From: an uncultured bacterium
GTDB taxonomy: Bacteria; Fermentibacterota; Fermentibacteria; Fermentibacterales; Fermentibacteraceae
Length of the DNA: 64,000 nt
NCBI GenBank assembly: GCA_964569245.1
Contig: CAZMTK010000003.1
Location: 58,485 to 122,484 of the forward strand
Direction: 5' to 3'
The notes beneath the pieces were generated by a model, which was not told the origin of the DNA, searched no databases, and was given only the letters and a program-made list of their open reading frames with translations. Position 1 is the stretch's first letter. The number at the start of each line of letters is the position of its first letter. This document shows positions 22,373-55,612 of this stretch, in pieces. The position numbers were made by a program, and so were the translations under genes.

Positions 22373-22376
22373 CTTG

Positions 22377-40915: not shown

Positions 40916-41500
40916 GTGATGCGGATGCCTGGTGACCCGGCCCCTGTGAAAGACGAATTCGAGAGCGAGATCCTCCAGTTCCTCGACGGGCTCTACGGAT
41001 ACGCGTTGCACTTGTCCCGCAACAGGGACGACGCCTGCGACCTCGTGCAGGAGACCTACGCGAGGGCCTTCAGGGCTCGGAGCCAGTACCGGCTGGGAAC
41101 AAACGCGCGCGCCTGGCTGTTTGCAATACTCAGGAACACCTTCCTCAACGATCGCAGAGCCCAGGGGCGGGCTCCGAAGACCGTCCCGTGCGAATGGATC
41201 GACGAGCTGGGCGAGGGAGGCGACGGAGAGGAGCTCCCTGCGAGGAGGACCCAGGATCCCCAGAGGTGTGTCCTGAACGACATCCTCAGGGAGGACATCG
41301 ACCGGGCCCTGGAGGAGCTCCCGGAGGAGTTCAGGAGCGCCGTGGTCCTCTGCGACGTGGAGGAGATGTCGTACGCCGAGATAGCGGAGATACTCCAGAT
41401 ACCGATAGGTACCGTCAGGTCCAGGATACACAGGGGTCGGGCGATACTCAAGAGGAAGCTGAGCGACTGGCGGTCAGGCACCGGGAGGGGTGGGAGTTGA
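40916..41500 (+). CDS. ECF (group 4) RNA polymerase sigma factor
   Basis: Region 2 (LVQETYARAFRA...ARAWLFAILRN) and region 4 (SYAEIAEILQIPIGTVRSRIHRGR), 194 aa. Confidence 0.85.
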   Translation: MMRMPGDPAPVKDEFESEILQFLDGLYGYALHLSRNRDDACDLVQETYARAFRARSQYRLGTNARAWLFAILRNTFLNDRRAQGRAPKTVPCEWIDELGEGGDGEELPARRTQDPQRCVLNDILREDIDRALEELPEEFRSAVVLCDVEEMSYAEIAEILQIPIGTVRSRIHRGRAILKRKLSDWRSGTGRGGS

Positions 41501-41721
41501 GATGTTCTGATGCTGCCCGCAGGATCCACGATTACGTCTCCGGCGAGCTGGAGGGAGATGATCGGGAGAGGCTCGAGAAGCATCTCGAGACCTGCGAGGA
41601 CTGCAGGTCCTGCGTGGACGAGAACATGGCGCTCCGGAGCAGGGTGAGGGACCTCATGAGGGTTTCCGCGCCAGCTTCGCTCCGTGCCGAGGTCGTGCGC
41701 CTCTCGCAGGCGCAGGTCTGA
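41497..41721 (+). CDS. Zinc-finger (ZAS-type) anti-sigma factor, small and soluble
   Basis: 74 aa with C...H...HLETCEDC (Hx3Cx2C). TTG start overlaps the sigma stop (TTGA). No TM segment. Confidence 0.6.
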   Translation: MRCSDAARRIHDYVSGELEGDDRERLEKHLETCEDCRSCVDENMALRSRVRDLMRVSAPASLRAEVVRLSQAQV

Positions 41722-41725
41722 GGCG

Positions 41726-42199
41726 TTGCCGGGACGCGACCGGCTGCTGCCGGCAGCCCTGGCAGCCGCGTGTGCGGCGGCGCCTCCGCTTGCCGCGCTC
41801 ATTCTGTTCGGGCGTCCAGCCAGCACCATCTCCGATGCGGGCTCCCTTGCAAGGCTGGGCTGCGTGCTCGCTGCAAGCGCCGAGGCTCCCCCTGGAAGGC
41901 CGGCGCTGGACAGCCTGGCCGCGTGGGCGGGCTTCCGTCTGCCCGCCGGGGCTCTCCTGGAGCCCGGAACTTCAGGAGCGGCCTGCAGTCTCTTCCCGTT
42001 CAGGATCGCAGCCTTCTCCTTCCCTTCCGACTCCTCCGTCATGGTTCTGGTCTGCTGCCCGGTTCCCCTGGCACTTCGCGATCCGGGTCCCGGAGGGCCG
42101 AGGGTTCTGTACGGAGGCGGGAGAACTGCGGTCATCGTGCTCCCGGGCTCCGGGGATTCCGGAGCCGCCAGGGCGGCCGGATCGCTGGAGCCGGTATGA
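41726..42199 (+). CDS. Hypothetical secreted protein
   Basis: TTG start 5 nt after the anti-sigma stop, and a signal-peptide-like LLPAALAAACAAAPPLAALILF. The stop overlaps the next ATG (ATGA), which supports translation. Confidence 0.4.
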   Translation: MPGRDRLLPAALAAACAAAPPLAALILFGRPASTISDAGSLARLGCVLAASAEAPPGRPALDSLAAWAGFRLPAGALLEPGTSGAACSLFPFRIAAFSFPSDSSVMVLVCCPVPLALRDPGPGGPRVLYGGGRTAVIVLPGSGDSGAARAAGSLEPV

Positions 42200-42678
42200 C
42201 TCCGGCGCTCAGGTGGGGAGCGGCATGCCTCGCGGCCCTGCTCGCGTGCTGCTGCTCGAAGGGGGGAGGAGATGCCGCCCTGGAGCAGGCGCCGCCTGCG
42301 CCCCCGTCGCTTCCGGGAAGGTTGTTCGCCCCCGACGGAACTCCGGCGGAGGTGTCGGCTGATTCCGCGATAGTGCTGTACCTCTGGCTGCCGCTGCCGG
42401 GACATCCCGGGCCGGAGTCCGACCTCGAAGCCATAGCCGAAACAGGGACGGCCGGCAACGTGGCGGCCTTCGCAGTTCAGACCAGCCCGGCCGCGAGGAA
42501 CTCCGCACAGGAGCAGGTCAACTCCCTCGGAATAGTGCTCCCCGTCTTCCTCGCCGATTCGGCGGCAGCCAGATGCATCCCTCCAGGAGATCTCCCGGTG
42601 GCCGTGCTCTTCGGACCAGGCGGCTCTACGGAAGTGGAGACGGGATTCGGCGCTGTGGAGCGCCTGCTCTCGAAGTGA
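42196..42678 (+). CDS. Thioredoxin-fold (TlpA/ResA-like) lipoprotein lacking the CxxC active site
   Basis: Lipobox LLACC. The redoxin-like layout places VLYLW-LPLPGHP where WCxPC would be, followed by VAAFAVQTS...LGIVLPVFLAD...LPVAVLFGPGGS. Confidence 0.5.
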   Translation: MTPALRWGAACLAALLACCCSKGGGDAALEQAPPAPPSLPGRLFAPDGTPAEVSADSAIVLYLWLPLPGHPGPESDLEAIAETGTAGNVAAFAVQTSPAARNSAQEQVNSLGIVLPVFLADSAAARCIPPGDLPVAVLFGPGGSTEVETGFGAVERLLSK

Positions 42679-43475
42679 GCCTGGAGCTGGCTCCCGGCTG
42701 CAGGCCGTTCATCGCGGTGTCAGACATCCACCTCTTCCCGGAGGAGAAGCCCCATCCGGGCAGAGAGGGCTTTCTGTCCTTCCTCGGGGAGATCGCCCGG
42801 GCCAGTCCCGGCGAACTCTGGATCGTGGGAGACCTGTTCGATTTCTGGCACGAGAGGCGTGGAGCGCCCCCCGGCTTCTCCAGGGTCCTCGCAGCGCTGG
42901 CGACGGCATCCGGTGCCGGCTGGAGCGTGACGTTCCTGCCGGGGAACCACGACATGTGGGTGGGCGAAGCCTTCTCCGCGGCGACAGGCGCCAGGGTCCT
43001 GGATCGGGGGCCGGTCGAGGTCCTCGTCGAGGGCAGGAGGGTCCTGCTGGCGCACGGCGACGGACTCGGAAGGGGGGACTGGGGCTACAAGCTCCTCCTG
43101 GGGCCGTTCCTGAAGTCCGGTGTCGCGAGAGCGCTGTTCCGGGCCCTGCCGACGGGCGCCGGCGGGTTCCTCGCGGAGCTCGCGTCGGGCACCAGCCGAC
43201 GCATCCTCAGGAGGCAGTCCGACGTCGTCCCCCGGCACCTGCGCGCGTGGGCAGACGGGATGATCCGCTCAGGGATGGACATTGTGATAACAGGGCACTC
43301 TCACGTGGCAGGGGCCAGGTCCGCCGGAGGAGGGCTCCACATCTCCCTGGGAGACTGGCTCGGCGACTTCCACTACGCATCCTCCGATCCCTCCCTCGGC
43401 CTGCGCCTGGTCCGCTACGAAGCCCCCGGCATCCGGCCAGCAGGACCGCTCGTTGACCCGGGCACGGCAGGGTGA
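42675..43475 (+). CDS. LpxH-like metallophosphoesterase (UDP-2,3-diacylglucosamine pyrophosphatase family)
   Basis: IAVSDIHL, GDLFDFWH, GNHD, GHSH. The GTG start overlaps the upstream stop (GTGA). Confidence 0.6.
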   Translation: MSLELAPGCRPFIAVSDIHLFPEEKPHPGREGFLSFLGEIARASPGELWIVGDLFDFWHERRGAPPGFSRVLAALATASGAGWSVTFLPGNHDMWVGEAFSAATGARVLDRGPVEVLVEGRRVLLAHGDGLGRGDWGYKLLLGPFLKSGVARALFRALPTGAGGFLAELASGTSRRILRRQSDVVPRHLRAWADGMIRSGMDIVITGHSHVAGARSAGGGLHISLGDWLGDFHYASSDPSLGLRLVRYEAPGIRPAGPLVDPGTAG

Positions 43476-44448
43476 GATTTTCGCCTCCATGGAAGCAGGC
43501 GGAGGAATGCTGCTGAGCGTGGTCGTTCCGGCCTTCAACGAGGCCGAGAGCATTCCCGAGCTGGTAGCAGAGACTGCCGGCGCGCTCTCGGGTCGCGAGT
43601 GGGAGATGGTGATCGTAGATGACGGGAGCACCGACTCCACATGGGAAGAGATCCGCAGGGCGGCCTCCGCCTACCCCGTCACGGGCCTCAGGTTCGGGAG
43701 GAACCACGGAAAGGCCGCAGCGCTCTCGGCCGGCTTCGCCGCCGCCGGAGGGGCGATCATCGCGACGATGGACGCCGATCTCCAGGACGATCCGGCGGAG
43801 ATCCCCGCGATGGCCGATATGCTCGCAGAGTCGGGCCTTGGCGTAGTGAGCGGATGGAAGAAGGAGCGCAGGGACCCTCCGTCGAAGAGGCTCCCCTCCA
43901 AGTTCTTCAACGCCGTTGTGCGCCGCGCCACCGGGATACCCCTGCACGACTTCAATTGCGGACTCAAGGTGTACCGTGCCGAGGCGGCCAGACGCATGGA
44001 CCTGTATGGAGAGATGCACAGGTACACCCCCGTGCTGGTGTCCCAGCTTGGCTGGACAGCCGGGGAGAAGCCCGTCAACCACAGGCCGAGAATGCACGGA
44101 CGCAGCAAGTACGGCCCGGCGAGGTTCTTCCGAGGATACGCCGACCTTCTCACGGTGCTCTTCCTGCACCGCTACTCGTTCAGGCCTCTGCACTTCTTCG
44201 GAGGGATCGGCACGACGCTCTTCGCCGGAGGGCTGGGCATCTCCATCTACCTCACCATCCTCAAGATCGCAACCGGGGCCTCGATCGGCAGGAGGCCCCT
44301 CCTCCTCCTGGGCGTGTTCCTCATGATGATAGGATTCCAGTTCGTCTCGCTCGGCCTTCTCGGCGAGATGCAGCTCCGCCTGCTGCCCGGGAAGAGGCTC
44401 TACACGGTGGTGGAGACCGCGGGGCGCCCGACCGGCTCGGGGACATGA
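43453..44448 (+). CDS. GT2 polyprenyl-phosphate glycosyltransferase (DPM1/GtrB/ArnC-like)
   Basis: VVVPAFNE, DDGSTD, DAD motifs and two C-terminal TM helices. The true start may be M13 or M19, at 43489 or 43507. Confidence 0.8.
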   Translation: MTRARQGEIFASMEAGGGMLLSVVVPAFNEAESIPELVAETAGALSGREWEMVIVDDGSTDSTWEEIRRAASAYPVTGLRFGRNHGKAAALSAGFAAAGGAIIATMDADLQDDPAEIPAMADMLAESGLGVVSGWKKERRDPPSKRLPSKFFNAVVRRATGIPLHDFNCGLKVYRAEAARRMDLYGEMHRYTPVLVSQLGWTAGEKPVNHRPRMHGRSKYGPARFFRGYADLLTVLFLHRYSFRPLHFFGGIGTTLFAGGLGISIYLTILKIATGASIGRRPLLLLGVFLMMIGFQFVSLGLLGEMQLRLLPGKRLYTVVETAGRPTGSGT

Positions 44449-45551
44449 GGCTCATCGCCGCCGGCCCGTTCCCTCCTCACAGGGGCGGGATCTCCCAGTT
44501 CGGCATGAGGCTCGCCGACGCCCTGGAGGCCCGCGTTCAGGTGCTCAGGGCCGGGTTCTCGCGGCTCTATCCCCGCGCGCTCTTCCCCGGTGTCTCCCAG
44601 TTCGATCCGGCTGGCGGGGCCAGGGTGGCCACAGTCGCGACGATGGATTCCTGCAGCCCGCCGTCATGGCGTCGAACGAGGCGGGAGCTGTCCCGCCTCG
44701 GCGCCGATGCGGCAGTGGTCCAGTGGTGGCACCCGTTCTTCGCCCCCGCCCTGCACTGGAGCCTGCCCTCCGCGGGCGCGGTGCGCAGGGCGGCGGTCTG
44801 CCACAACATCCATCCCCACGAGGGCTTCCCGATGGGCAGGGCTCTGGCGAAGTGGTTCCTCGGAAAGGCGGAGGTCCTTGTCGTGCACAGCGCAGCCGAC
44901 GAGGAGAGGGCGCGGGCGCTGCTGCCCCGCGCCAGGCTCCTGAGGCTGTTCCACCCGGTCTACGACCAGTACCTGGCCTTCGACCGCGGCAGGGGCTCCG
45001 CGAGGAGCGCACTCGGCTACGGCGAGAGCGAGAGAGTCATCCTCTTCTTCGGGCTCGTGCGCCCCTACAAGGGGGTGGAGGATCTTGTCGAAGCCTTCCG
45101 GGAGATGCCTGGAGACTGCAAGCTGCTTCTCGCAGGAGAGTGCTACTCCGGCGCGGAGCCGATCAGGAAGGCGCTCGAGGGGACAGGCATCGCCCCCAGG
45201 GCTCGATGGGACGAGCGCTTCATTCCCGATGCCGAGGTCTGGGCCTACTTCAGGGCGGCCGACCTCGTAGTCCTGCCGTACAGGAGCGCCACCCAGAGCG
45301 GCGTTGCCCAGATAGCCGTCTCATTCGGCAGGCCCATGGTCCTCACGAGGACCGGCGGGCTGCCGGAGCTGATAGACGAGGGGCGAACAGGCTTCCTGGC
45401 CGAGCCCTGCTCGCCTGGAAGCCTCGCGGCAGCAATGAGGAGAGCGCTGGAGCTTCCGCAGGGAGCGGAGATGGAGGGCCGCGTGGCGCAGGTGGCGGCG
45501 AGGTTCTGCTGGGATCGCTATGCAGATTCCCTGCTGGAGGCGATCCTTTGA
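44445..45551 (+). CDS. GT4 (GT-B fold, family-1-like) glycosyltransferase
   Basis: C-terminal FGRPMVLTRTGGLPELI...GFL (EX7E region). The ATG overlaps the GT2 stop (ATGA). Confidence 0.75.
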   Translation: MRLIAAGPFPPHRGGISQFGMRLADALEARVQVLRAGFSRLYPRALFPGVSQFDPAGGARVATVATMDSCSPPSWRRTRRELSRLGADAAVVQWWHPFFAPALHWSLPSAGAVRRAAVCHNIHPHEGFPMGRALAKWFLGKAEVLVVHSAADEERARALLPRARLLRLFHPVYDQYLAFDRGRGSARSALGYGESERVILFFGLVRPYKGVEDLVEAFREMPGDCKLLLAGECYSGAEPIRKALEGTGIAPRARWDERFIPDAEVWAYFRAADLVVLPYRSATQSGVAQIAVSFGRPMVLTRTGGLPELIDEGRTGFLAEPCSPGSLAAAMRRALELPQGAEMEGRVAQVAARFCWDRYADSLLEAIL

Positions 45552-46441
45552 AGGTGTTCGTCGCCGGTGCGGGAGGCTTCGTCGGAGGCGCAGTCGCGGC
45601 TCTTCTCGAGAGCGCGGGTCACGAGGTCGCCGCTCACGTCCGCTCCCGCGACGGCGACGTCCGTCCCGGGTCGGTTCCATCGGATACCGGCCTGGTGGTC
45701 AATTCCGCCGGACGGCTTGGCGGGGCCGGAGTGGACGAGGCTGCGCTGGATGCCGGCAACGTCTCTCCTGCAAGAGTGCTGGCTCACGAGGCGGCTCGGC
45801 TCGGGATCCCTGTCGTGCATCTCGGCACGCCGGGCGTCGCAGGCCTCGTGGCAGGCGCCTCCGAGGACCTGCCGCCGGCCCCCTGGGGCGCCTACGAGCG
45901 ATCGAAGGCGCGTGCCGAGGAGATCCTCCGCTCGATCGTGCCCGAGGGAAGGCTCACGATACTGAGACCCGATTTCGTCTACGGCCCGGGCGACGTCCAC
46001 AAGGCCGCACTGTTCAGGCAGGCGGCGAAGGGCTGGTTCCCCCTGGTAGGAACTGGAGGGGCCAGGATAAGGCCCACCTATGTCCTCGATGTAGCGAGGG
46101 CCTGCATGGAGTCCATGCCGGGGGGGAGGCTCGAGGGCGGCGTCTTCCACATAGGCGGGCCGGAGGTCGTCACGGTGTCGGAGCTGATAGCGGCCGTAGG
46201 CAGGGCACTGGGAAGGCGCGTACTGCGCATTCCCGTGCCAAGGGCGGCGTTCCGCGCGGCGATCGCACTGGGGCTCTTCAGGGGAGTGCTGTCCGAGAGC
46301 CGGTATCTGCTGTTCGGGAGGGACCACTTCGTCTCCATCGAAAAGGCGTCCTCGGCCGGCTTCGTTCCCGGCACGGATCTGGCGCGGGGGCTGGAGGCCG
46401 CGGTGTCCTGGCTCAGAGCCGAAGGCATGGTGACGCGTTGA
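45548..46441 (+). CDS. NAD-dependent epimerase/dehydratase (SDR family)
   Basis: (M)KVFVAGAGGFVGG Rossmann motif and YERSKARAE (YxxxK). The TTG start overlaps the GT4 stop (TTGA). Confidence 0.8.
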   Translation: MKVFVAGAGGFVGGAVAALLESAGHEVAAHVRSRDGDVRPGSVPSDTGLVVNSAGRLGGAGVDEAALDAGNVSPARVLAHEAARLGIPVVHLGTPGVAGLVAGASEDLPPAPWGAYERSKARAEEILRSIVPEGRLTILRPDFVYGPGDVHKAALFRQAAKGWFPLVGTGGARIRPTYVLDVARACMESMPGGRLEGGVFHIGGPEVVTVSELIAAVGRALGRRVLRIPVPRAAFRAAIALGLFRGVLSESRYLLFGRDHFVSIEKASSAGFVPGTDLARGLEAAVSWLRAEGMVTR

Positions 46442-47394
46442 GCGCCTGGAGCAGGAACTTGATCGTGCGCTGGGCATCCAGGGCTGTTCTCGCAGTGCTG
46501 GTGCTCTTCGCTCTAGCTTCGGTGGCTGCGAGGTGGAGTGAGATCTCCGGTTCGTTCGAGAGGGTGAGCTGGTCTCCGGATCCGCTTGCACTCGCCGCTT
46601 CGGCGGTGATCCTGGCTGCATCGCTTGCATTCAATCCATTCGGCTGGATGATGCTCGCGAGAGAGCTGGGATCGGACACGTCCGCCGCCGGGCTGAGGGC
46701 TGCGTGGTTCGCCAGCCAGCTCGGAAGATACATGCCCGGCAAGATCTGGCTCTTCGCGGGCAGGATCGGGTTCCTGAGGAGCGAAGGGCTCTCCACTGCG
46801 CGCGCAGTCGCTGCCTCGGTCTGGGAGCTGGTCGCGGGCGCTGCGGCGGCAGGCGCCGTGGCCCTGCCCTGCATGCTGCTCTCCGGCGCCACGGACATCG
46901 CCCCTGCTGTGAGGACCGCAGCCACGGCGGCAGCCGCGGCGATGTTCCTGCTGCCCCTGCTGGGCCCCGTCCAGAAGGCTGCGTTCGCTCTGAAGGGCAG
47001 GTCCGCCTTCACGGGGATCCGGACTTCGGCAGGGCTGAGGGTGGCGGGCCTCTTCTGCACCCTCTGGGTGGCTCGCGGGCTCTCCCTCTACCTGTGGCTC
47101 ACCGGGCTGGGGCTGGAGACCCGCGGGTTCTGGCCCGTCATGGCTGCCGCGCCGCTGTCGTGGCTCGCGGGGTATATTGTCTTCGTAGTTCCCGGAGGCA
47201 TCGGCGTGAGGGAGACCGTGACGGCTGTGCTGGCGGCCCCTCCCGGCACGGCCGGCCCCGTTGTGGCCGCCTGCCTTTGCCAGACGGCGCTCATGGCCGT
47301 TCTCGAGATCCTTCTGGCGCTTCCCGCCTTCAGGGCGGCTCCTGGAGTCCGCGACACAGCGAAAGGCGGAGCAGATGGTGCGGATTCAGGCTGA
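46438..47394 (+). CDS. UPF0104 / lysylphosphatidylglycerol-synthase-TM (flippase-like) family membrane protein
   Basis: Multi-TM, with GRYMPGKIWLFAGRIGF and VVPGGIGVRET, which match my recollection of PF03706. The TTG start overlaps the epimerase stop (TTGA). Confidence 0.55.
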   Translation: MSAWSRNLIVRWASRAVLAVLVLFALASVAARWSEISGSFERVSWSPDPLALAASAVILAASLAFNPFGWMMLARELGSDTSAAGLRAAWFASQLGRYMPGKIWLFAGRIGFLRSEGLSTARAVAASVWELVAGAAAAGAVALPCMLLSGATDIAPAVRTAATAAAAAMFLLPLLGPVQKAAFALKGRSAFTGIRTSAGLRVAGLFCTLWVARGLSLYLWLTGLGLETRGFWPVMAAAPLSWLAGYIVFVVPGGIGVRETVTAVLAAPPGTAGPVVAACLCQTALMAVLEILLALPAFRAAPGVRDTAKGGADGADSG

Positions 47395-49651
47395 TCGAGG
47401 GAGCTGGCTGGCAGCGCTGGGTCTCATGGCTGCCCTGTCGGCTGCTGTGTACTGGAGCGTCCTGTCGTCCCCGCGCCTTCCGGGGGGCGATCTCAGCGAC
47501 ACCGTCCACCAGGGCTACCCCTTTCTCCAGTTCACAAGGCAGGCTCTCCTCGAATGGCGCCTGCCCCACTGGAATCCCTTCATCTATTGCGGAATCCCCT
47601 TCTACTCCTCGTTCTCCGCCCCTGTCACGTATCCGATCCGGGGCGCACTCCTGCTCGCAGGAGCCGAGGCTGCGGTCCGATTCCTCTTTCCCGTGCACCT
47701 CGTCATCGGAGGCATGTCGGCCTGGCTTCTCCTGGGGGCTGTGGGCGTGTCCCGCCAGGGGAGGCTGGCGGGTGCCCTCGCCTTCGCAGCCGGCGCCTGG
47801 GCGAACACCCTGTTCTATGCGGGGCATGGCAGCAAGATCATCTGCTGGAGCTACCTCCCCCTCCTGCTGTTCGCCTGCGAGCGATGGCTCGCCACCAGGC
47901 GGCTCTGGTTCGCAGCCCTGGGAGGCCTGTGCTTCGGCATGCAGGCGCTCTCGAGCCATCCCCAGATGCTGCTCTACAGCGGCATGGCCGCCCTCCTGTG
48001 GTCAGCGGCGAGGTCCCTGCAGTCGCGCTGCCTGCGGACGGCGGCGGCCGCCGCCGGCGGCCTGGCGCTCATGACCGTCCTCGGGCTCTCGGTCGGAGCT
48101 GTGCAGCTTCTTCCGGGGTATGATTTCTCCAGGTACTCCAGCCGGGGTGAGAACCTGTCGCTGGACCAGTCGCAGAGCTACTCCCTGCCGCCCGAGGAGA
48201 CGCTCGTCATGGTCTTCCCCCGCCTGTTCGGCTACAGGCACGGCTTCGCCGACAGCTCCGCCGGGGGCATCCCGCTCTACTGGGGGAGGCTCGGTCTGAG
48301 GCTCTCCAGCGAGTTCACCGGGGTCTCGGTAGCGCTTCTCGCGCTGATCGGCCTGCTCGCCGGGAGGTCGGCCTGCCGATGGCCCCTGCTCGCGATCCTG
48401 GTCACGGGGCTAGTCGTCTCGTGGGGCGGCTATACCCCCGTCTATTCTCTCCTCTACCGGCTGGTGCCGCTCTTCAGGAAGCTCAGGGCCCCCCACATGG
48501 CGGCGTTCCTCAGCACGTCGGCTCTCTCGCTGATGGCCGGCCCGGGCTTCGACGCGCTCCTCGCGAAAGGGGGCCGATCGTGGAAGGCGGCCCTCGTCTT
48601 CTCTGCATCGTGCCTGGTCGCCTTCATTGCGGCAGGCCCTATCGTGGAGAGCCTCCAGGCGGGATGGTGGGATAGGGCGGGGGTCGCCCCCTCCGACTGG
48701 ATCGTACAGCGGCGCATAGACATGGCTGCTGGTGACTTCCTGCGTGCCTGCGTCTCGGCCGCCTTGGTCGGGCTCGCCGGGCTGCTGGCCTCGAGGGGCA
48801 GGCTGACCCCGGGCGGCGCGCTGGTGCCTGCGCTCTTGCTCATGTCGCTGGAGCTCGTCCCGGTAGACAGGGATTTCCAGGTTTTCCTGCCGGACACCAG
48901 AATCGAGTCTGTGTGTCCGGACTATTCCCGGCTGGCCGCCGCCGCCGGCGGTGGGAGGGTTCTCCCTGGCGGAAACGAGATGATCCCGTCAGGAGTGCTG
49001 TCGGTCGCCGGGTATCACGCGGCGAGAACGCAGGCCAACGACGACATGCTGGAGCTTGTCTCCGGCGGCGGGCTGGCCGGGGCGAGGCTCACAGCCTTCA
49101 CGGTGCTCTTCGAGTCCGGCGTCGTAGTACCCTACGACTCGCTGATAGCGGCTGTCTCCGGAGGCCCGGGCGGCGTGCCGGAGGGGCTCGAGAGACCGCA
49201 GCCGAGAGTCTTCCTGGCGTCGGACTGGGCGGTGGATCCTGCATCGGCCGGGGGCTCCTTCGATCCCGGCGGCCCCCCGCCGGAGAGGCTCACGGTGCTG
49301 GACAGGGATCCCGGCATCCCGCACGGCGGCGACTCCTCCGGAACGGCCCGGATGGTTGCGGACCTGCCCGAGCTGGTCGTCGTGGAGACCTGCGCGGGCT
49401 CTCCCTCCATACTGGTCCTCGCCGACACCTGGTATCCCCGGTGGCGCGCCGAGGTCGACGGCGTCGAGACACCCCTTCTCAGGGCCAACTGCTGGCAGAG
49501 GGGCGTGGCCGTGCCTGCAGGGGAGCACACAGTGAGCTTCAGGTTCGACCATTCGGACGTGGGAATCGGCGCCCTCGCCAGCGTGACCGGGATCGCCCTG
49601 ACTGCGGGGATCGGCCTCCTCGAGCTGCTCTCGCGCCGCAGGAGGGCCTGA
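47375..49651 (+). CDS. YfhO-like large polytopic membrane protein (putative GT-C glycosyltransferase) with a C-terminal extracytoplasmic domain
   Basis: About 758 aa. The N-terminal roughly 550 aa hold many TM helices, and the C-terminal roughly 200 aa are soluble. Size, topology and the operon partners (GT2 plus flippase-like) fit YfhO/GT-C. Confidence 0.45.
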   Translation: MVRIQADRGSWLAALGLMAALSAAVYWSVLSSPRLPGGDLSDTVHQGYPFLQFTRQALLEWRLPHWNPFIYCGIPFYSSFSAPVTYPIRGALLLAGAEAAVRFLFPVHLVIGGMSAWLLLGAVGVSRQGRLAGALAFAAGAWANTLFYAGHGSKIICWSYLPLLLFACERWLATRRLWFAALGGLCFGMQALSSHPQMLLYSGMAALLWSAARSLQSRCLRTAAAAAGGLALMTVLGLSVGAVQLLPGYDFSRYSSRGENLSLDQSQSYSLPPEETLVMVFPRLFGYRHGFADSSAGGIPLYWGRLGLRLSSEFTGVSVALLALIGLLAGRSACRWPLLAILVTGLVVSWGGYTPVYSLLYRLVPLFRKLRAPHMAAFLSTSALSLMAGPGFDALLAKGGRSWKAALVFSASCLVAFIAAGPIVESLQAGWWDRAGVAPSDWIVQRRIDMAAGDFLRACVSAALVGLAGLLASRGRLTPGGALVPALLLMSLELVPVDRDFQVFLPDTRIESVCPDYSRLAAAAGGGRVLPGGNEMIPSGVLSVAGYHAARTQANDDMLELVSGGGLAGARLTAFTVLFESGVVVPYDSLIAAVSGGPGGVPEGLERPQPRVFLASDWAVDPASAGGSFDPGGPPPERLTVLDRDPGIPHGGDSSGTARMVADLPELVVVETCAGSPSILVLADTWYPRWRAEVDGVETPLLRANCWQRGVAVPAGEHTVSFRFDHSDVGIGALASVTGIALTAGIGLLELLSRRRRA

Positions 49652-49654
49652 AGA

Positions 49655-51790
49655 GTGGCGAGAAGAAAGGCTGCGGAGGCCGCCGCCGCCTGGCTGGGCG
49701 TGCTGCTGACCGCGGCTGCCGCGGCCGTCTTCGCGTTCGTCCTGTGGCCTTCGTGGAAGCCCCGGGTCGAGGCGTTCTTCTCGGGATTCGACCCCCTCGC
49801 GCGCTGGCCCCTGATAGCGCTCTCCGTGCTGTCCGCCCTGCTGAGCCAGGCGTTCGCGCCCTGCGCGTGGCAGAGGGTGCTCCGGGCGCTGTCCCTGCCC
49901 GGCTCGCACGGTTCCGACTCGAAGCGCAACTGGTACGTGACGCAGATGGGCAGCTACATCCCGGGGAAGTTCTGGATGTACATCGGGAGGGCGGCCTTCC
50001 TCGGCGCGCGCGGCGCCGGCGGCGCGAAGAGCAGCGCGGCCATCGCCCTGGAGAACATCTACCTCATGGTGTCGGTATGCCTCATGGCGCTGGTCGCTAT
50101 ACCCTTCACCGGCGGCACCCGCATGCCCGGGGGAGTCAGGGCAGCGCTCGCAGTCTCAATGGGAGCCACGCTCCTGGCGCTTCTTGCGCCCGGCATCAGG
50201 AGGGGGCTGGCGGCGCTGATCACGAGGAGGCCCGGCGGGGACCCCGGCGTACTGCCGGAGCTCTCCCTGGGCAGCCAGGCTGTCATGATAGGGTTCGACA
50301 TGCTCTCCTGGACCTTCAGGGGCGCTTCGCTCTTCTTCTGGTTCCTCGCGGCGGGTGCGGGCGCTGGCAGAGAGGTCCAGATGCTCTCCGTCTGCCTGCT
50401 GGCCATGCCCGTCTCCTGGCTCGCGGCACTGCTCCTCGTGATCGTGCCCGGGGGCATCGGTCTGCGCGAGTCCATCCAGGGGGTTCTTCTGCAGGAGTTC
50501 GCAGGAGCGTCTCTGGCCGTCGCCACTACCATCGCCCTCTCTCACAGGATCGTGCTCATCGTCTCCGAGGGAGTCTTCGCGGCCGGCGCGCTCGTCCTCG
50601 ACGGCCTCTGGAAGAGGCGCCCCTCGATGATGAGACATCTCCGCCAGTCGGCGAGGCTCGCGGCGTGCCTCCTGCGCGCCAGGCTGTTCATGATGGGCGT
50701 CGGGACCCCGCCGCCCCCTGTGAATCTCACCTTCTCGGTCACGAGGAGGTGCCAGTCGCGCTGCCGGACCTGCTACATCTGGAAGGCCCCTCCCCTCGAG
50801 GAGCTGTCGCTGGCGGAGATAGAGGCGCTCTTCCGGGAGATCGGCTGGACCTACTTCTTCAACGTCTCGGGCGGCGAGCCCTTCCTGCGGGACGACCTGC
50901 CGGAGATCGTGGGCCTCGCCTGCAGACACCTCGATCCCGCCGTCATCCACATCCCCACGAACGCCCTCCTGCCCGCTAGGATCGAGTCCATGACCGCCGA
51001 GATGCTGGAGATCGTCGCCCGCGAGGCGCCTGGAGCCGCGCTCACGATAAAGCCCTCCTTCGACGGGGTCGGGGACCTGCATGACGAGGTGCGGGGGGTC
51101 CCCGGCAACTTCGCCAGGCTCCTCGACACCCTCGAGAGGCTCCTGGCCCTGCGGGAGCGCCACCCCGAGCTGCATGTCGGAGTGGGCACGGTGATCTCCC
51201 GCGAGAACGCCGGAAGGCTCGGCGAGATCATGGAGTTCGCCGGCAGCCTCGGCGTGGACACCTACATCAACGAGATCGCCGAGGAGCGGGAGGAGTTCTT
51301 CAACCGCGGCTCAGGAATAACGCCCGACCCGGACACCTACCGCAGGATCATGCTCGGCTTCAAGGCAGCCGCCGTTGACAGGATGCGGAGCATGAAGCTC
51401 CTCGGGCGGATCACCACCGCGCTAAGGATCGTCTATTACGACCTTGTAGTGAGGATCATGCAGGAGAAGCGCCAGGTGATACCGTGCTACGCGGGAATAC
51501 TGAACGCCCACATCAACGCCGACGGAGCCCTCTGGCCCTGCGCGATAAGAGCCTACGGCTCCGAGATGGGGAGGGCGGGGCGAGAGGGCGGCTTCGCCGG
51601 AGCGTGGAAGTCCGAAAGGGCCCGCGCGATCAGGCGCTCGATCAGGAGGGGGGAGTGCGGCTGCCCGCTCGCCAACCAGGCCTATTCCAACATCCTCATG
51701 CATGCGCCAAGCCTTCTCCGCGCAGCCCGCACTGCGCTGTTCCCGGGCAGGGCCTCCGCGCGGTCTCCCCGGCAGGAAGGAGCAGGATGA
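49655..51790 (+). CDS. Fusion of a UPF0104/LPG-synthase-TM flippase-like membrane domain and a radical SAM/SPASM enzyme
   Basis: Residues 1-340 are paralogous to the gene at 46438 (SYIPGKFWMYIGRAAF, IVPGGIGLRESI). Residues 350-711 carry radical SAM motifs CQSRCRTC (CxxxCxxC), SGGEPFL and IPTNALL. A Cys-rich SPASM-like tail follows (PCYAG...WPC...ECGCP). Confidence 0.7.
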   Translation: MARRKAAEAAAAWLGVLLTAAAAAVFAFVLWPSWKPRVEAFFSGFDPLARWPLIALSVLSALLSQAFAPCAWQRVLRALSLPGSHGSDSKRNWYVTQMGSYIPGKFWMYIGRAAFLGARGAGGAKSSAAIALENIYLMVSVCLMALVAIPFTGGTRMPGGVRAALAVSMGATLLALLAPGIRRGLAALITRRPGGDPGVLPELSLGSQAVMIGFDMLSWTFRGASLFFWFLAAGAGAGREVQMLSVCLLAMPVSWLAALLLVIVPGGIGLRESIQGVLLQEFAGASLAVATTIALSHRIVLIVSEGVFAAGALVLDGLWKRRPSMMRHLRQSARLAACLLRARLFMMGVGTPPPPVNLTFSVTRRCQSRCRTCYIWKAPPLEELSLAEIEALFREIGWTYFFNVSGGEPFLRDDLPEIVGLACRHLDPAVIHIPTNALLPARIESMTAEMLEIVAREAPGAALTIKPSFDGVGDLHDEVRGVPGNFARLLDTLERLLALRERHPELHVGVGTVISRENAGRLGEIMEFAGSLGVDTYINEIAEEREEFFNRGSGITPDPDTYRRIMLGFKAAAVDRMRSMKLLGRITTALRIVYYDLVVRIMQEKRQVIPCYAGILNAHINADGALWPCAIRAYGSEMGRAGREGGFAGAWKSERARAIRRSIRRGECGCPLANQAYSNILMHAPSLLRAARTALFPGRASARSPRQEGAG

Positions 51791-52503
51791 AGCTTCTCGA
51801 GATGACGACCCACGACTTCGCGAGGCTGGAACCCTCGCTCGCCTTCCTCCCCCTCGGTACGGTGGAGGCGCACGACCTCGGCCCGCTGGGAACCGACGCA
51901 GTCGCACCCGAGCGCATAGCCTGCGACCTGGCGGGCAGGTTCGGGGCGGTCGTGCTCCCCACCATGCCATACGGGCTCGTACGCTCTCTGGCCGGCCACC
52001 CCGGCGGCATGTGGCTCACGGAGGATACCTACAGGGCCGTGGTGCTGGAGCTGATAGGCTCGATATCCCTCTCGGGCGTCTCCAGGCTGGTCGTCTTCAA
52101 CGGGCACGGCGGCAACACCGGCGTCCTCAGGGAGGTCCTGCCGGAGGCAGTGGAGAGATACGGGACGATGACGGCTCTGGTTGACTGGTGGGTCGCGGGG
52201 GGCGACATCGCACGGAGGCTCTTCGGCGGCGCCGCCGGGCACGGGGGCTCTGACGAGCTCTCGGTCGTCTTCTCGGACAGGCTGGACATGCTGCCGGAGT
52301 GGGACGGAAGCAGGTCGTGGAGGGCGGTCGAAGGGGCGTGGGCGTGGCCCGCCCCAAGGTCATCGATCAGGTACGACGACGAACCTGCAAGACCCCTCGA
52401 GCGGGGCGCGGCGGCCGAATACTACAGACTCCTGCTGGAGAGGCTGGAAGTGACGGTCGAGGGCATCCTGTCCGGCTGGGACTCGATCCCGCGCATCACC
52501 TGA
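51787..52503 (+). CDS. Creatininase-family (creatinine amidohydrolase/MftE/ArfB-fold) hydrolase
   Basis: LAFLPLGTVEAHDLGPLGTDAV and VFNGHGGN signatures. The ATG overlaps the radical SAM stop (ATGA). Confidence 0.8.
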   Translation: MKLLEMTTHDFARLEPSLAFLPLGTVEAHDLGPLGTDAVAPERIACDLAGRFGAVVLPTMPYGLVRSLAGHPGGMWLTEDTYRAVVLELIGSISLSGVSRLVVFNGHGGNTGVLREVLPEAVERYGTMTALVDWWVAGGDIARRLFGGAAGHGGSDELSVVFSDRLDMLPEWDGSRSWRAVEGAWAWPAPRSSIRYDDEPARPLERGAAAEYYRLLLERLEVTVEGILSGWDSIPRIT

Positions 52504-54782: not shown

Positions 54783-55612
54783 CAGGAGTCGTCCTCCACG
54801 GGGGAATAGACCTGTCCGCGGGAGGGGAACCCCCCCGACCTCACCTCGGAGGCGTATGACCTCACGGCTCCGACCATTGCGTCGTAGAGCTGCGCGAATC
54901 TCCTGAGGAACCTCGGCTCGAAGCCCGGTGTGAGGCCGAGCATGTCGCTCGCGACCAGTATCTGGCCGTCCGTGAACCTCCCGGCTCCTATCCCTATCGT
55001 CGGGACGGATACCGAGGCGGTGACGTCCCTTCCGACAGACTCCTCGACGCTCTCGACGACCAGCGCGAACACCCCCGCCGCCTCCAGGGCCCGTGCCTCG
55101 CCCACGAGCCGGTCGGTGGCCTGGGCGGACGTCACACGGTACCCTCCCGTGAGCCTGACCGACTGCGGCAGCAGGCCGATGTGGCCCATCACGGGTATTC
55201 CGGACTCGACGAGAGCCGCGACTCTCTCGAGGGTTCTGGGTCCCGCCCCCTCCAGCTTGACGGCGTCGGCCCCCCCCTCGGAGAGGAAGCGAGATGCGTT
55301 CCTCACGGCGTCCTCGACGGACGCCTGGTAGGAGCCGAACGGCATGTCTCCCACCACCAGCGTTCCCGGCGCGCCCCGCCTGACAGCCCTCGCATGGGCC
55401 ACCAGCAGGTCCATGGTTGCCCCCAGAGTGGTTTCCTCGCCCATCACCGCCATGACCATGGAGTCCCCGACCAGGATGAAATCCACGCCGGCCTCCTCCT
55501 CGGCCCTTGCCGTAGGGCAGTCGTAGGCGGTCAGGGCCACGATCCTCTCCCCCCGCCTCTTCAGGTCGAGCAGGCGCTGGATGGTGCCCCTTCCTCGGTC
55601 CTCACTCCTCAT
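54782..55612 (-). CDS. panB: 3-methyl-2-oxobutanoate hydroxymethyltransferase
   Basis: TAYD, LVGDS, GHIGL(L)PQ motifs, 276 aa. Confidence 0.9.
   Translation of the reverse strand: MRSEDRGRGTIQRLLDLKRRGERIVALTAYDCPTARAEEEAGVDFILVGDSMVMAVMGEETTLGATMDLLVAHARAVRRGAPGTLVVGDMPFGSYQASVEDAVRNASRFLSEGGADAVKLEGAGPRTLERVAALVESGIPVMGHIGLLPQSVRLTGGYRVTSAQATDRLVGEARALEAAGVFALVVESVEESVGRDVTASVSVPTIGIGAGRFTDGQILVASDMLGLTPGFEPRFLRRFAQLYDAMVGAVRSYASEVRSGGFPSRGQVYSPVEDDS

What the first reader, a model, noticed from the sequence alone, without database searches (positions are those of the whole stretch)
43453..49651. Three-component extracytoplasmic glycosylation module (GT2, flippase-like, YfhO-like GT-C) with LpxH-like, GT4 and epimerase partners
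A GT2 with DPM1/GtrB-like motifs and C-terminal TM helices, a UPF0104 flippase-like protein, and a 758-aa YfhO-like polytopic protein together match the logic of known systems. In those, a GT2 makes a polyprenyl-phosphate sugar that is flipped and then transferred by a GT-C enzyme on the outer leaflet, as in teichoic-acid or LPS glycosylation. The additional LpxH-family pyrophosphatase (normally a lipid A step), GT4 and NAD-epimerase suggest a dedicated nucleotide-sugar or glycolipid branch rather than a simple O-antigen glucosylation.
Basis: inference. Interest (0 to 1): 0.6.

Follow-up and report, generated by a model that had tools for sequence, protein, structure and literature searches.

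The report
Periplasmic sugar-transfer operon with radical-SAM partner
This is a phylum-wide envelope operon of Candidatus Fermentibacteria that most likely loads a sugar onto a lipid carrier, tailors it, flips it and attaches it outside the cytoplasm; that is a known kind of system, here with an undescribed partner, a radical-SAM enzyme fused to a flippase-like domain.

Summary

- **GT2 (43507-44448):** a full-length relative of ArnC with two C-terminal membrane helices.
- **46438-47394:** a weak but full-length UPF0104 (MprF-type flippase-like) match.
- **47375-49651 (758 aa):** no Pfam hit of its own. Its model has a GT-C fold. A profile of its family matches bona fide YfhO (PF09586) proteins over their full length.
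- **"LpxH-like" gene (42675-43475):** it carries GNHD, not the GNRD that defines LpxH. It is LpxH2-type, with no proven substrate.
the next gene (49655-51790) fuses a second UPF0104 domain to a radical-SAM/SPASM enzyme whose nearest fold is BlsE, a sugar decarboxylase. An ECF sigma/anti-sigma pair sits upstream.

The eight-gene core keeps its order in all 63 Fermentibacteria-phylum species genomes found, wherever the contig is long enough. In another lineage the same GT2-GT4-SDR-…-rSAM order recurs, with a Wzx-type flippase and PMT_2 GT-Cs in the flippase and GT-C positions.

Verdict: the three-component logic is supported by homology and context only. Sugar and acceptor are unknown, and LPS is only a lead. 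This is a new variant of a known kind, of moderate interest.

The parts
40925..41500 (+). ECF sigma factor at the head of the gene run.
   Evidence: Pfam Sigma70_r2 and Sigma70_r4_2. Present upstream of the cluster in 32 of 63 related loci and absent in one subclade.
41497..41721 (+). Anti-sigma factor (zf-HC2), overlapping the sigma gene by 4 bases.
   Evidence: Precomputed PF13490 on the identical contig. Travels with the sigma gene in 32 loci.
42196..42678 (+). 160-aa protein of unknown family whose N-terminus looks like a lipoprotein signal. First conserved gene of the core.
   Evidence: No Pfam hit at E<1. Found directly upstream of the LpxH2-like gene in 43 loci. Sequence shown.
42675..43475 (+). 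LpxH2-type metallophosphoesterase, 266 aa. It is a pyrophosphatase-like enzyme with the canonical GNHD motif, not the GNRD of LpxH.
   Evidence: Only LpxH structures are hit in the PDB (E 2e-17). NCBIfam LpxH models score 82 and 76 bits against cut-offs of 134 and 190. GNHD occurs in this protein and in all 120 listed homologues. The Arg is LpxH-specific (PMC5016852), and the LpxH2 class is defined in PMC3087551.
43507..44448 (+). ArnC/GtrB/DPM1-type GT2, a predicted polyprenyl-phosphate sugar synthase with two C-terminal membrane helices. An alternative start lies at 43453.
   Evidence: PF00535 E 5e-30. NCBIfam ArnC model 167 bits. PDB ArnC 9bhc/8vxh/9hwj E 1e-48 over residues 3-292, against 78 bits for GtrB and 76 for DPMS. 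DADLQDD motif and hydrophobic segments at 252-306.
44445..45551 (+). Cytoplasmic GT4 (GT-B) glycosyltransferase.
   Evidence: Glyco_trans_1_4 and Glycos_transf_1. Nearest solved relatives are MshA and BshA. It is 35-36% identical over the full length to the GT4 next to radical-SAM homologues in L074 and L077.
45548..46441 (+). Extended SDR (NAD-dependent epimerase/reductase type), 297 aa.
   Evidence: PF01370 E 4e-16. GAGGFVG and Y116xxxK120. Nearest solved relatives are NDUFA9-type SDRs. It is 31-34% identical to the SDRs next to radical-SAM homologues in L008 and L077.
46438..47394 (+). Free-standing UPF0104 (MprF-flippase-type) membrane protein, 318 aa.
   Evidence: PF03706 25.5 bits, E 1e-5, full-length alignment but below the gathering score. 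Orthologues carry PF03706. It is a paralogue of the N-terminal domain of the next-but-one gene: 31% identity and hhalign E 2.6e-65.
47375..49651 (+). Divergent YfhO-superfamily GT-C glycosyltransferase, 758 aa. It has about 13 membrane helices, a periplasmic domain at about 495-725 and a final membrane helix at 727-757.
   Evidence: AF2 model with pLDDT 86.5 and pTM 0.89. The top 19 Foldseek PDB hits are all GT-C enzymes, including AftD, AftA, ArnT, STT3/PglB/AglB and PMT. The family profile hits about 800-aa proteins over the full length, and 10 of 10 sampled are PF09586 above cut-off. The motif LPGG-D/E-LS-D42-T..QGYPF in the first periplasmic loop is invariant.
49655..51790 (+). Fusion protein of 711 aa: an N-terminal UPF0104 flippase-like domain (about 1-345) and a C-terminal radical-SAM/SPASM enzyme (about 350-700).
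51787..52503 (+). Creatininase-family amidohydrolase. It is a lineage-specific add-on, not part of the conserved core.
   Evidence: PF02633 E 4e-32. Found after the cluster in only 6 of 63 loci.

Best explanation
The run from 42196 to 51790 is one envelope operon, conserved across the phylum Fermentibacterota. In this lineage it is preceded by an ECF sigma/anti-sigma pair and followed by a creatininase-family gene. It works like the Gtr, Arn and CsbB-GtcA-YfhO 'three-component' systems, with extra tailoring enzymes.

**Proposed steps**
1. The ArnC-like GT2 transfers a sugar from a nucleotide sugar to polyprenyl phosphate on the cytoplasmic face.
2. The GT4, the SDR and the radical-SAM/SPASM enzyme extend or chemically tailor that sugar or its precursor. 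The radical-SAM domain is tethered to an MprF-type membrane domain, so it probably acts on a lipid-linked substrate at the membrane surface.
3. One or both UPF0104 domains carry the lipid-linked product to the outer leaflet.
4. The YfhO-family GT-C, using the conserved acidic D/E39-x-x-D42 motif in its first periplasmic loop, transfers the sugar to an extracytoplasmic acceptor.

**What is shown:** gene order and its conservation, folds, family relationships, motifs, and replacement of the flippase and GT-C positions by other families in another lineage.

**What is inferred:** every activity, the order of steps, the sugar and the acceptor. The acceptor is most plausibly LPS (lipid A or core), but that is a weak lead. 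The LpxH2-type enzyme is a conserved member whose step is unknown. It probably cleaves a pyrophosphate in a nucleotide-linked or polyprenyl-linked lipid intermediate.
For: **Operon structure**
- Successive genes overlap by 4 bases or are 3 bases apart.
- The order hyp160, LpxH2-like, GT2, GT4, SDR, UPF0104, GT-C, UPF0104::rSAM is kept in all 63 species-level genomes found where the contig allows. All 63 are Fermentibacteria, Aegiribacteria, Sabulitectum or Hyd24-12.

**Component identities**
- GT2: ArnC structures E 1e-48, full length including the membrane hairpin.
- GT-C: a high-confidence model with only GT-C neighbours at the top of the fold search, YfhO superfamily by profile, YfhO architecture as described in PMC5836110, and an invariant acidic motif in the first periplasmic loop.

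**Cross-lineage evidence**
- L077 has GT2 (49% identity), GT4 (36%), SDR (31%), GT2b, Wzx, PMT_2, rSAM (51%), PMT_2. That is the same order, with other families in the flippase and GT-C positions.
- L078 and L104 are of the same type.
- L076 has a UPF0104::rSAM fusion directly followed by a YfhO-like gene.
- Of 34 metagenomic radical-SAM loci, 27 carry a GT4, SDR, methyltransferase or GT-C.

**Precedents**
- Archaeal GT2 + UPF0104 + GT-C neighbourhoods (PMC5898192).
- An SDR epimerase acting inside a three-component system (PMC11127046).
- GT + UPF0104 glycolipid operons gpgSDF and hexSDF (PMC12713373, PMC10128005).

**LPS lead**
- Hyd24-12 genomes are predicted diderm with LPS (PMC5030696).
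- In three Aegiribacteria loci the GT4 position holds a GT9 heptosyltransferase-family gene and another GT4.
Against: - No experiment exists for any component, and the organism is uncultured.
- Wider synteny (RNR … Sua5-purE-purD-panB-PAP2) is also conserved in the phylum. Order conservation inside the phylum alone therefore does not prove functional coupling.
- There is no GtrA/GtcA-type small flippase. UPF0104 flippase activity has been shown only for the MprF domain with Lys-PG, and GpgF and HexF are unverified (PMC12713373).
- The window GT-C gets no direct Pfam hit. Direct YfhO matches in its close relatives cover only the C-terminal 50-70 residues.
- Outside Fermentibacteria only 7 of 34 radical-SAM loci showed a GT-C, and 2 of 34 an ArnC-like GT2, with my limited query set. 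The radical SAM/GT4/SDR trio may therefore serve cytoplasmic glycan synthesis in general rather than the periplasmic step.
- Radical-SAM fold neighbours also include peptide maturases at similar scores.
- The LPS link rests on context only.
Confidence: 0.55

Rival explanations
1. Two independent lipid pathways share one operon. The GT4 and a UPF0104 protein make and flip a glycosylated membrane lipid, as in gpgSDF or hexSDF. The GT2 and GT-C form a separate two-gene glycosylation pair that may itself decorate that glycolipid.
For: GT + UPF0104 operons are experimentally linked to glycolipid synthesis (PMC12713373, PMC10128005). The NCBIfam GlcNAc-PG synthase model hits the GT4 weakly, at 43 bits. 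Two UPF0104 domains could serve two different lipid cargoes.
Against: The GT4 score is far below the 480-bit cut-off. No deacetylase lies in the conserved core. In other lineages the orthologous GT4 stays with the radical SAM and SDR without any UPF0104 (0 of 34 loci). The GT4-UPF0104 pair is therefore not the conserved unit.
Confidence: 0.15
2. This is an LPS/lipid A operon. The LpxH2-type gene is the phylum's lipid A pyrophosphatase, the GT4 is a core glycosyltransferase, and GT2 + UPF0104 + GT-C decorate lipid A or core in the periplasm, as the Arn, Lgm and Flm systems do. This refines the acceptor in the main explanation rather than contradicting it.
For: PGAP and JGI name the orthologues UDP-2,3-diacylglucosamine diphosphatase. 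The GT2 is closest to ArnC. A GT9 heptosyltransferase-family gene is inserted in the cluster in Aegiribacteria. The phylum is predicted diderm with LPS (PMC5030696). Some bacteria carry only LpxH2 (PMC3087551).
Against: The defining LpxH Arg is missing. P. aeruginosa LpxH2 did not complement E. coli lpxH, and a different substrate has been proposed for it (PMC3087551, PMC5016852). No other lipid A gene lies in the 64-kb window. Known lipid A glycosylation uses ArnT-family GT-Cs, not YfhO-family ones.
Confidence: 0.2
3. This is a conserved neighbourhood without a shared pathway. The genes are ordinary envelope and housekeeping genes kept adjacent by slow genome rearrangement in a small-genome phylum.
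For: Flanking housekeeping genes (RNR, Sua5, purE, purD, panB) keep their order too. No promoter or terminator signal above background delimits the cluster.
Against: Start and stop codons overlap all along the run. The same core recurs, in the same order, in lineages with different flanks and 49% GC. A UPF0104::rSAM fusion lies next to a YfhO-like gene in L076.
Confidence: 0.05
4. The UPF0104::radical-SAM protein modifies bulk membrane lipids, for example by C-C or ether chemistry as in the tetraether synthase, and is unrelated to glycosylation.
Against: BlsE, SkfB and anSME score higher than GDGT-MAS. Stand-alone homologues at 45-56% identity sit among GT4, SDR, methyltransferase, Wzx and GT-C genes, not lipid synthesis genes.
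Confidence: 0.05

Closest known systems
CsbB-GtcA-YfhO lipoteichoic acid glycosylation system of Bacillus subtilis (PMC5836110, PMC7389260, PMC11898649)
   Same: A GT2 with two C-terminal membrane helices is paired with a YfhO-superfamily GT-C built of about 13 membrane helices plus a large outside domain before the last helix. Both systems are linked to an ECF sigma factor: SigM in Bacillus, and an adjacent ECF pair here.
   Different: The host is a diderm candidate phylum with no teichoic acids expected. There is no GtcA/GtrA-type flippase, and two UPF0104 domains appear instead. A GT4, an SDR, an LpxH2-type enzyme and a radical-SAM enzyme are added. The GT-C is so divergent that Pfam YfhO does not detect it directly.
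Arn (ArnC/ArnD/ArnEF/ArnT) and related Lgm/Flm lipid A glycosylation pathways
   Same: The GT2 is closest to ArnC: 167 bits in NCBIfam and E 1e-48 against ArnC structures. The logic is the same: a carrier-linked sugar is tailored in the cytoplasm, flipped, then transferred by a GT-C.
   Different: The GT-C is YfhO-type, not ArnT (GT83). There is no ArnA, ArnB or ArnD homologue, and no SMR-type ArnE/F flippase. The GT2 score is far below the ArnC equivalog cut-off of 529 bits. Lipid A as the acceptor is unproven.
Three-component pentofuranose systems with an auxiliary SDR epimerase (Citrobacter O antigens; PMC11127046)
   Same: A lipid-linked donor synthase, a flippase and a GT-C work with a cytoplasmic SDR that is thought to remodel the sugar on the carrier before export.
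   Different: The donor synthase there is a phosphoribosyltransferase using PRPP, the flippase is MATE-type, and the GT-C is GT136. No radical-SAM enzyme is involved.
Archaeal AglD-like GT2 + UPF0104 + PMT/STT3-like GT-C neighbourhood (predicted; PMC5898192)
   Same: The same three families of parts are adjacent, with UPF0104 proposed as the flippase.
   Different: That case is archaeal, linked to S-layer glycosylation, and itself only a prediction. It has no radical SAM, GT4 or LpxH2-type genes.
gpgSDF (Pseudomonas aeruginosa) and hexSDF (Clostridioides difficile) glycolipid operons (PMC12713373, PMC10128005)
   Same: A glycosyltransferase and a UPF0104 'flippase' sit in one operon that acts on membrane lipids.
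   Different: Those systems have a deacetylase and no GT2, GT-C or radical SAM. The GT4 here scores only 43 bits against the 480-bit cut-off of the GlcNAc-PG synthase model.
BlsE, DesII, BtrN and anSME: SPASM/twitch radical-SAM enzymes acting on sugars or alcohols
   Different: Sequence identity is only 13-20%. None of those enzymes is fused to a membrane domain or encoded with a GT-C. Peptide maturases (SkfB, SuiB) score nearly as well, so the substrate class is not settled.

Membership tests
YfhO family (Pfam PF09586) GT-C glycosyltransferases | Direct significant match of the protein to PF09586. | tested here: not met
   The window protein has no hit even at E<10. Of 42 close relatives, 32 match at E<=1, but only over profile positions 745-835 (the C-terminal end). 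Scores are 24-34 bits against a cut-off of 28.5.
YfhO family (Pfam PF09586) GT-C glycosyltransferases | Full-length homology to accepted family members. | tested here: met
   The family profile matches about 800-aa proteins over profile positions 5-767 at 260-350 bits. There are 9,859 representatives at E<=1e-30. All 10 sampled are PF09586 above the cut-off, and three of them match the membrane core.
YfhO family (Pfam PF09586) GT-C glycosyltransferases | About 13 membrane helices with a large extracytoplasmic domain between the last two (PMC5836110). | tested here: met
   In the AF2 model, helices span residues 2-494, a mixed alpha/beta domain spans 495-725, and the last helix spans 727-757.
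GT-C fold glycosyltransferases | GT-C fold. | tested here: met
   The top 19 Foldseek PDB hits are all GT-C enzymes, including AftD (E 8e-7), AftA, ArnT, PglB/STT3/AglB, PMT and DPY19; PimE follows at rank 22. TM-scores are modest, 0.3-0.47.
GT-C fold glycosyltransferases | Conserved acidic residue(s) in the first extracytoplasmic loop, needed for catalysis. | tested here: inconclusive
   D/E39-L-S-D42 lies just after the first membrane helix and D42 is invariant in 42 sequences. Position and conservation fit, but the catalytic role cannot be tested here.
Polyprenyl-phosphate glycosyltransferases (ArnC/GtrB/DPM1-type GT2) | GT-A catalytic domain with a DxD motif plus a C-terminal membrane hairpin, with full-length similarity to characterised members. 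| tested here: met
   PF00535 E 5e-30. DADLQDD motif and two hydrophobic helices at 252-306. ArnC structures align over residues 3-292 of 313 at E 1e-48, and GtrB and DPMS also match.
ArnC (undecaprenyl-phosphate Ara4FN transferase) equivalog | Score at or above the NCBIfam NF007986 cut-off of 529 bits. | tested here: not met
   The score is 167 bits. The protein is ArnC-like, not an ArnC orthologue, and the donor sugar is unknown.
LpxH (UDP-2,3-diacylglucosamine pyrophosphatase) | Arg replacing His in the third metallophosphoesterase motif (GNRD), which binds the lipid X phosphate (PMC5016852). | tested here: not met
   The window protein has GNHD. The alignment to solved LpxH shows 'gnhd' against 'gnrd'. 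All 120 listed homologues have GNHD. This is the LpxH2 signature (PMC3087551).
LpxH (UDP-2,3-diacylglucosamine pyrophosphatase) | Score above the NCBIfam equivalog cut-offs. | tested here: not met
   NF003743 scores 81.8 against 134, and TIGR01854 scores 75.6 against 190.
   Only a 64-kb window and 20-kb loci could be read. No other lipid A gene lies in the window. The homologue list shows no second Fermentibacteria-labelled tier, but that is not decisive.
UPF0104 / MprF flippase domain (PF03706) | Match to PF03706 above the gathering score. | tested here: inconclusive
   The free-standing window protein scores 25.5 bits against 33.4, but over profile positions 6-295 of 302. Orthologues and the fused paralogues carry PF03706 at E<=1e-5.
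UPF0104 / MprF flippase domain (PF03706) | Fold of the MprF membrane domain. | tested here: met
UPF0104 / MprF flippase domain (PF03706) | Lipid translocation activity. | not testable with these tools
   This is inference from MprF. Even GpgF has not been verified experimentally (PMC12713373).
Radical SAM / SPASM enzymes | CxxxCxxC cluster motif and C-terminal auxiliary-cluster cysteines. | tested here: met
   C366, C370 and C373 are invariant, as are C611, C629, C668 and C670. PF04055 E 5.5e-13. SPASM scores 21.2 bits against 21.5 for the window protein and passes in orthologues.
Three-component extracytoplasmic glycosylation systems (Gtr, CsbB/GtcA/YfhO type) | A GtrA/GtcA-family or SMR/MATE-type small flippase encoded with the GT2 and GT-C. 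| tested here: not met
   No such gene lies in the run. UPF0104 occupies that position here, and a Wzx-type protein occupies it in L077, L078 and L104.
Mycofactocin system (MftC radical SAM + MftE creatininase-family peptidase) | MftC and MftE equivalog scores, and a conserved pairing with a precursor peptide. | tested here: not met
   MftC scores 39.9 against 265 and MftE 45.6 against 172. The creatininase gene follows the cluster in only 6 of 63 loci.

The most novel reading that the evidence does not exclude
The UPF0104::radical-SAM/SPASM protein, together with the SDR, performs oxygen-independent redox chemistry directly on the polyprenyl-phosphate-linked sugar made by the ArnC-like GT2. 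This could be a BlsE-like decarboxylation, or an oxidation followed by SDR reduction, which would make it an anaerobic counterpart of ArnA or DprE1/DprE2. The product passes straight to the fused flippase-like domain for export to the YfhO-type GT-C. If so, this would be the first radical-SAM enzyme working on a carrier-lipid sugar, and the first enzyme-flippase fusion of the MprF kind in glycan rather than phospholipid biosynthesis. It would also define a widespread GT2-GT4-SDR-flippase-GT-C-rSAM pathway found in several uncultured lineages.
Probability: 0.2. Interest if true: 0.8.

Novelty: new variant of a known kind. Interest (0 to 1): 0.5.

Why it matters
Periplasmic glycosylation by a carrier-lipid sugar synthase, a flippase and a GT-C enzyme is well known. 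It underlies O-antigen seroconversion, polymyxin resistance and teichoic acid decoration.

This locus adds three things. First, the scheme is a fixed, phylum-wide part of the envelope in an uncultured diderm phylum common in anaerobic digesters. Second, it uses a YfhO-type transferase outside its Gram-positive context. Third, it is tied to a radical-SAM enzyme fused to an MprF-type flippase domain, an arrangement I found in none of the papers searched.

If the fusion acts on the carrier-linked sugar, it would show how strict anaerobes do sugar redox tailoring at the membrane. It would also give the large UPF0104 family a second tested cargo class. The cross-lineage cluster gives experimentalists a defined set of genes to express.

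The LpxH2 finding also matters for annotation. Pipelines name these genes as the lipid A enzyme although the defining residue is absent.

Tried and rejected
**Searches that gave nothing**
- Direct Pfam and NCBIfam assignment of the 758-aa protein: no hit.
- PDB sequence search with the GT-C family profile: no hit. The free-standing UPF0104 protein also gave none.
- The afdb50 fold library was unavailable.
- The promoter and terminator scan found nothing above shuffled background, so operon limits rest on gene spacing only.
- Literature searches for YfhO together with UPF0104, and for radical SAM with GT-C and flippase terms, found no description of such a cluster.

**Readings rejected**
- Hopanoid Hpn cluster (HpnA, HpnB, HpnL-like hits): scores are far below the cut-offs, 48 against 368 and 24 against 379, and there are no hopanoid genes.
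- Mycofactocin (radical SAM + creatininase): scores are low and the creatininase gene is not conserved.
- Tetraether/GDGT-type lipid synthase for the radical SAM: it ranks lower than sugar and peptide radical-SAM enzymes by fold, and the gene context is glycan-type.
- My interim view that the LpxH-like gene is simply the housekeeping lpxH. It rested on PGAP names and solitary homologues next to lptE or a PBP. I dropped it after the GNHD/GNRD check and the LpxH2 literature.

**Could not be tested**
- Whether a canonical LpxH, LpxI or LpxG exists elsewhere in the genome.

Full report
**1. What is in the sequence**

The window has about 68% G+C, so raw ORF lists are full of spurious frames. Third-position GC analysis and the gene calls on identical public contigs agree on one uninterrupted run of + strand genes:

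| Coordinates | Gene |
|---|---|
| 40925-41500 | ECF sigma factor |
| 41497-41721 | anti-sigma factor (zf-HC2) |
| 41726-42199 | small protein of unknown family |
| 42196-42678 | small protein of unknown family ("hyp160") |
| 42675-43475 | metallophosphoesterase |
| 43453/43507-44448 | GT2 |
| 44445-45551 | GT4 |
| 45548-46441 | SDR |
| 46438-47394 | UPF0104 membrane protein |
| 47375-49651 | 758-aa polytopic protein |
| 49655-51790 | 711-aa protein |
| 51787-52503 | creatininase-family protein |

Most junctions are 4-base overlaps. A consensus scan finds no promoter or terminator signal above shuffled background inside the run.

**2. The GT2**

- Pfam Glycos_transf_2 matches at E 5e-30.
- The best NCBIfam model is ArnC at 167 bits, far below its 529-bit cut-off.
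- Against solved structures, ArnC matches at E 1e-48 over residues 3-292 of 313, which includes the membrane hairpin. GtrB of Synechocystis scores 78 bits and archaeal DPMS 76 bits.
- The sequence carries DADLQDD and two C-terminal hydrophobic helices.

It is a polyprenyl-phosphate glycosyltransferase of the ArnC/GtrB/DPM1 type. The donor sugar cannot be read from the sequence.

**3. The 758-aa protein**

- It has no Pfam or NCBIfam hit even at E<10. Its family profile finds no PDB sequence.
- A word-indexed search found 231 relatives. Nearly all named ones come from Candidatus Fermentibacteria, Aegiribacteria or Sabulitectum.
- An AlphaFold2 model built on 42 of them is confident: pLDDT 86.5 and pTM 0.89.
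- Its top 19 Foldseek neighbours in the PDB are all GT-C glycosyltransferases: AftD, AftA, ArnT, PglB/STT3/AglB, PMT and DPY19, with PimE at rank 22.
- Direct Pfam YfhO matches exist in 32 of 42 relatives. They cover only the last 50-90 profile positions and mostly fall below the cut-off.
- The decisive link came from an exhaustive profile search. It gave 64,813 representatives at E<=1e-3. The next tier consists of about 800-aa proteins matched over the whole profile at 260-350 bits. All 10 sampled are PF09586 members above threshold, and three of them match the membrane core.
- The architecture equals that described for B. subtilis YfhO (PMC5836110): about 13 helices, a periplasmic domain at 495-725 and a last helix at 727-757.
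- The motif LPGG-(D/E)-LS-D42-T..QGYPF follows the first helix and is invariant. It resembles the DxxD motif in the first outside loop that is essential in GtlB (PMC5836110).

The protein is a divergent YfhO-superfamily GT-C.

**4. The UPF0104 proteins**

- The free-standing protein matches PF03706 over the full profile, but at 25.5 bits against a cut-off of 33.4. Its orthologues pass.
- The next-but-one gene starts with a second UPF0104 domain. The two are paralogues, with 31% identity and hhalign E 2.6e-65.
- A flippase function has been demonstrated only for MprF. For AglD, GpgF and HexF it remains a prediction (PMC5898192, PMC12713373, 10.1101/2022.03.11.483950).

**5.

Residues about 350-700 of the 711-aa protein form a radical-SAM/SPASM enzyme.

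- The CxxxCxxC motif and four further cysteines are invariant.
- The substrate class is therefore not settled. A sugar or alcohol substrate is as compatible as a peptide.
- The fusion is present in 62 of 63 related loci.

**6. The "LpxH-like" gene**

- Only LpxH structures are hit in the PDB, and PGAP and JGI name the orthologues as the lipid A enzyme.
- The scores are below both NCBIfam cut-offs.
- The alignment to solved LpxH shows GNHD where LpxH has GNRD. All 120 listed homologues have GNHD.
- The Arg is reported as LpxH-specific in all known sequences and binds the lipid X phosphate (PMC5016852).
- His at this position defines the LpxH2 class. The P. aeruginosa member did not complement E. 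coli lpxH, and a different substrate has been proposed for it (PMC3087551, PMC5016852).
- Homologues in other phyla are solitary genes, for example next to lptE or a PBP.

I therefore do not file it as LpxH. Whether it serves lipid A here cannot be decided with these tools. A metallophosphoesterase that frees the carrier lipid under ECF control (UpsH, PMC11898649) is a further possible analogy.

**7. Conservation**

- A scan of one genome per species returned 63 loci. All named ones are Fermentibacteria, Aegiribacteria, Sabulitectum or Hyd24-12.
- tblastn with the window proteins shows the order hyp160, LpxH2-like, GT2, GT4, SDR, UPF0104, GT-C, UPF0104::rSAM in every locus long enough.
- The creatininase gene follows in only 6 loci. 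The ECF pair is present in 32.
- The flanking housekeeping genes are syntenic too, so conservation within the phylum is not sufficient evidence on its own.
- In three Aegiribacteria loci the GT4 position holds 5.7 kb. It carries a T9SS-tailed protein, a methyltransferase, another GT4 and a GT9 heptosyltransferase-family gene.

**8. Evidence from outside the phylum**

- Stand-alone homologues of the radical-SAM domain (45-56% identity) lie next to SDR, methyltransferase, GT4, GT2, Wzx-type flippase, UPF0104 and PMT_2 GT-C genes.
- Locus L077 (49% G+C) reads GT2, GT4, SDR, GT2b, Wzx, PMT_2, rSAM, PMT_2. Its GT2 is 49% identical to the window's over the full length with two C-terminal helices. 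The GT4 is 36% identical, the SDR 31% and the radical SAM 51%.
- That is the window's order, with a different flippase family and a different GT-C family in the same positions. This is what one expects if those positions carry the flippase and transferase functions.
- L078 and L104 are of the same type, and L104 has a YfhO-like gene after the radical SAM.
- L076 has a 40%-identical UPF0104::rSAM fusion directly followed by a YfhO-like gene with the same loop motif.
- Among 34 non-Fermentibacteria metagenomic loci of at least 8 kb, counts were: GT4 in 19, SDR in 15, the methyltransferase in 13, a GT-C in 7, a Wzx-type gene in 5 and UPF0104 in none.
- The radical SAM/GT4/SDR trio is thus the widest unit. 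The full ArnC-like GT2 + flippase + GT-C arrangement is a subset.

**9. How it most likely works**

The GT2 charges polyprenyl phosphate with a sugar. The GT4, SDR and radical SAM extend or tailor it, with the radical SAM held at the membrane by its UPF0104 domain. One or both UPF0104 domains export the lipid-linked product. The YfhO-type GT-C then transfers it to an acceptor outside the cytoplasm.

Only the identities, folds, motifs and gene contexts are shown. All activities, the sugar and the acceptor are inferred. LPS is the favoured acceptor for three reasons: the organism is predicted diderm with LPS (PMC5030696), the GT2 is ArnC-like, and LPS-core-type genes are inserted in the cluster in one subclade. 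This is a lead, not a result.

**10. Comparison and novelty**

The logic matches the Gtr, Arn and CsbB-GtcA-YfhO systems, and the pentofuranose systems with an auxiliary SDR (PMC11127046). A GT2 + UPF0104 + GT-C neighbourhood was predicted for archaea (PMC5898192).

Four things differ here:
- a YfhO-type GT-C in a diderm candidate phylum;
- UPF0104 in place of GtrA/GtcA;
- the constant LpxH2-type partner;
- above all, the radical-SAM/SPASM enzyme fused to a flippase-like domain.

No paper in the searchable library describes that last combination. I rate the locus a new variant of a known kind, of moderate interest. Interest would rise if the radical SAM proves to act on the carrier-linked sugar.

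Noticed in passing
L026:2400-8100 (also L017 and L063): In three Aegiribacteria genomes the GT4 position between the GT2 and the SDR is replaced by about 5.7 kb. It holds a T9SS-tail protein, a MetW-like methyltransferase, a minus-strand GT4 and a GT9 heptosyltransferase-family gene. This is a variable region inside an otherwise rigid cluster.
   Followed up: partly
window:60452-63094 (+): An 880-aa protein has weak Peptidase_C25 (gingipain-type) and Por_Secre_tail matches. It is probably a type IX secretion cargo protease, which fits an FCB-group organism.
   Followed up: no
window:57344-58933 (-), with 55602-56516 (-) and 56740-57261 (-): A 529-aa membrane protein is listed as DUF6311 in the precomputed annotation, but it gave no hit in my own Pfam scan. 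It lies next to a PAP2_3 phosphatase and an NlpC/P60 hydrolase. It could be another envelope glycan or carrier-lipid gene group.
   Followed up: no
window:32073-33362 (-): A single 429-aa ORF combines a guanylate kinase domain (residues 9-186) with a DFP/CoaB-type C-terminal domain (214-394). This is an unusual fusion of two housekeeping enzymes.
   Followed up: no
window:51787-52503 (+): A creatininase-family amidohydrolase is translationally coupled to the radical-SAM gene here, but it is present in only 6 of 63 related loci. It could be a lineage-specific deacylase for the sugar, or unrelated.
   Followed up: partly
L076:2944-8605: In a distant lineage the UPF0104::radical-SAM fusion and its YfhO-like neighbour sit beside an AMP-binding acyl ligase and a FabA/MaoC-type dehydratase with ApeI/ApeP-like hits. 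This hints at a lipid-tailoring context different from the glycan context seen elsewhere.
   Followed up: no
window:8441-12965 (-) and 18073-23663 (-): By eye from the translations, these are a Tol-Pal cluster (YbgF-like, Pal, TolB, TolA/TonB-like, TolR, TolQ) and a MacAB-type ABC exporter with an HlyD-type adaptor and a TolC-like channel. They fit a diderm envelope but were not scanned with HMMs.
   Followed up: no
L055, L056, L059, L062, L065, L066, L069, L070 (region between RNR and hyp160): One Fermentibacteraceae subclade lacks the ECF sigma/anti-sigma pair upstream of the cluster, while all core genes remain. ECF control is therefore not universal in the phylum.
   Followed up: no
P0242, P0265 and many JGI entries: Public pipelines name these GNHD-type (LpxH2-class) proteins 'UDP-2,3-diacylglucosamine diphosphatase', although the LpxH-defining Arg is absent. 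This is probably a systematic over-annotation across several phyla.
   Followed up: partly
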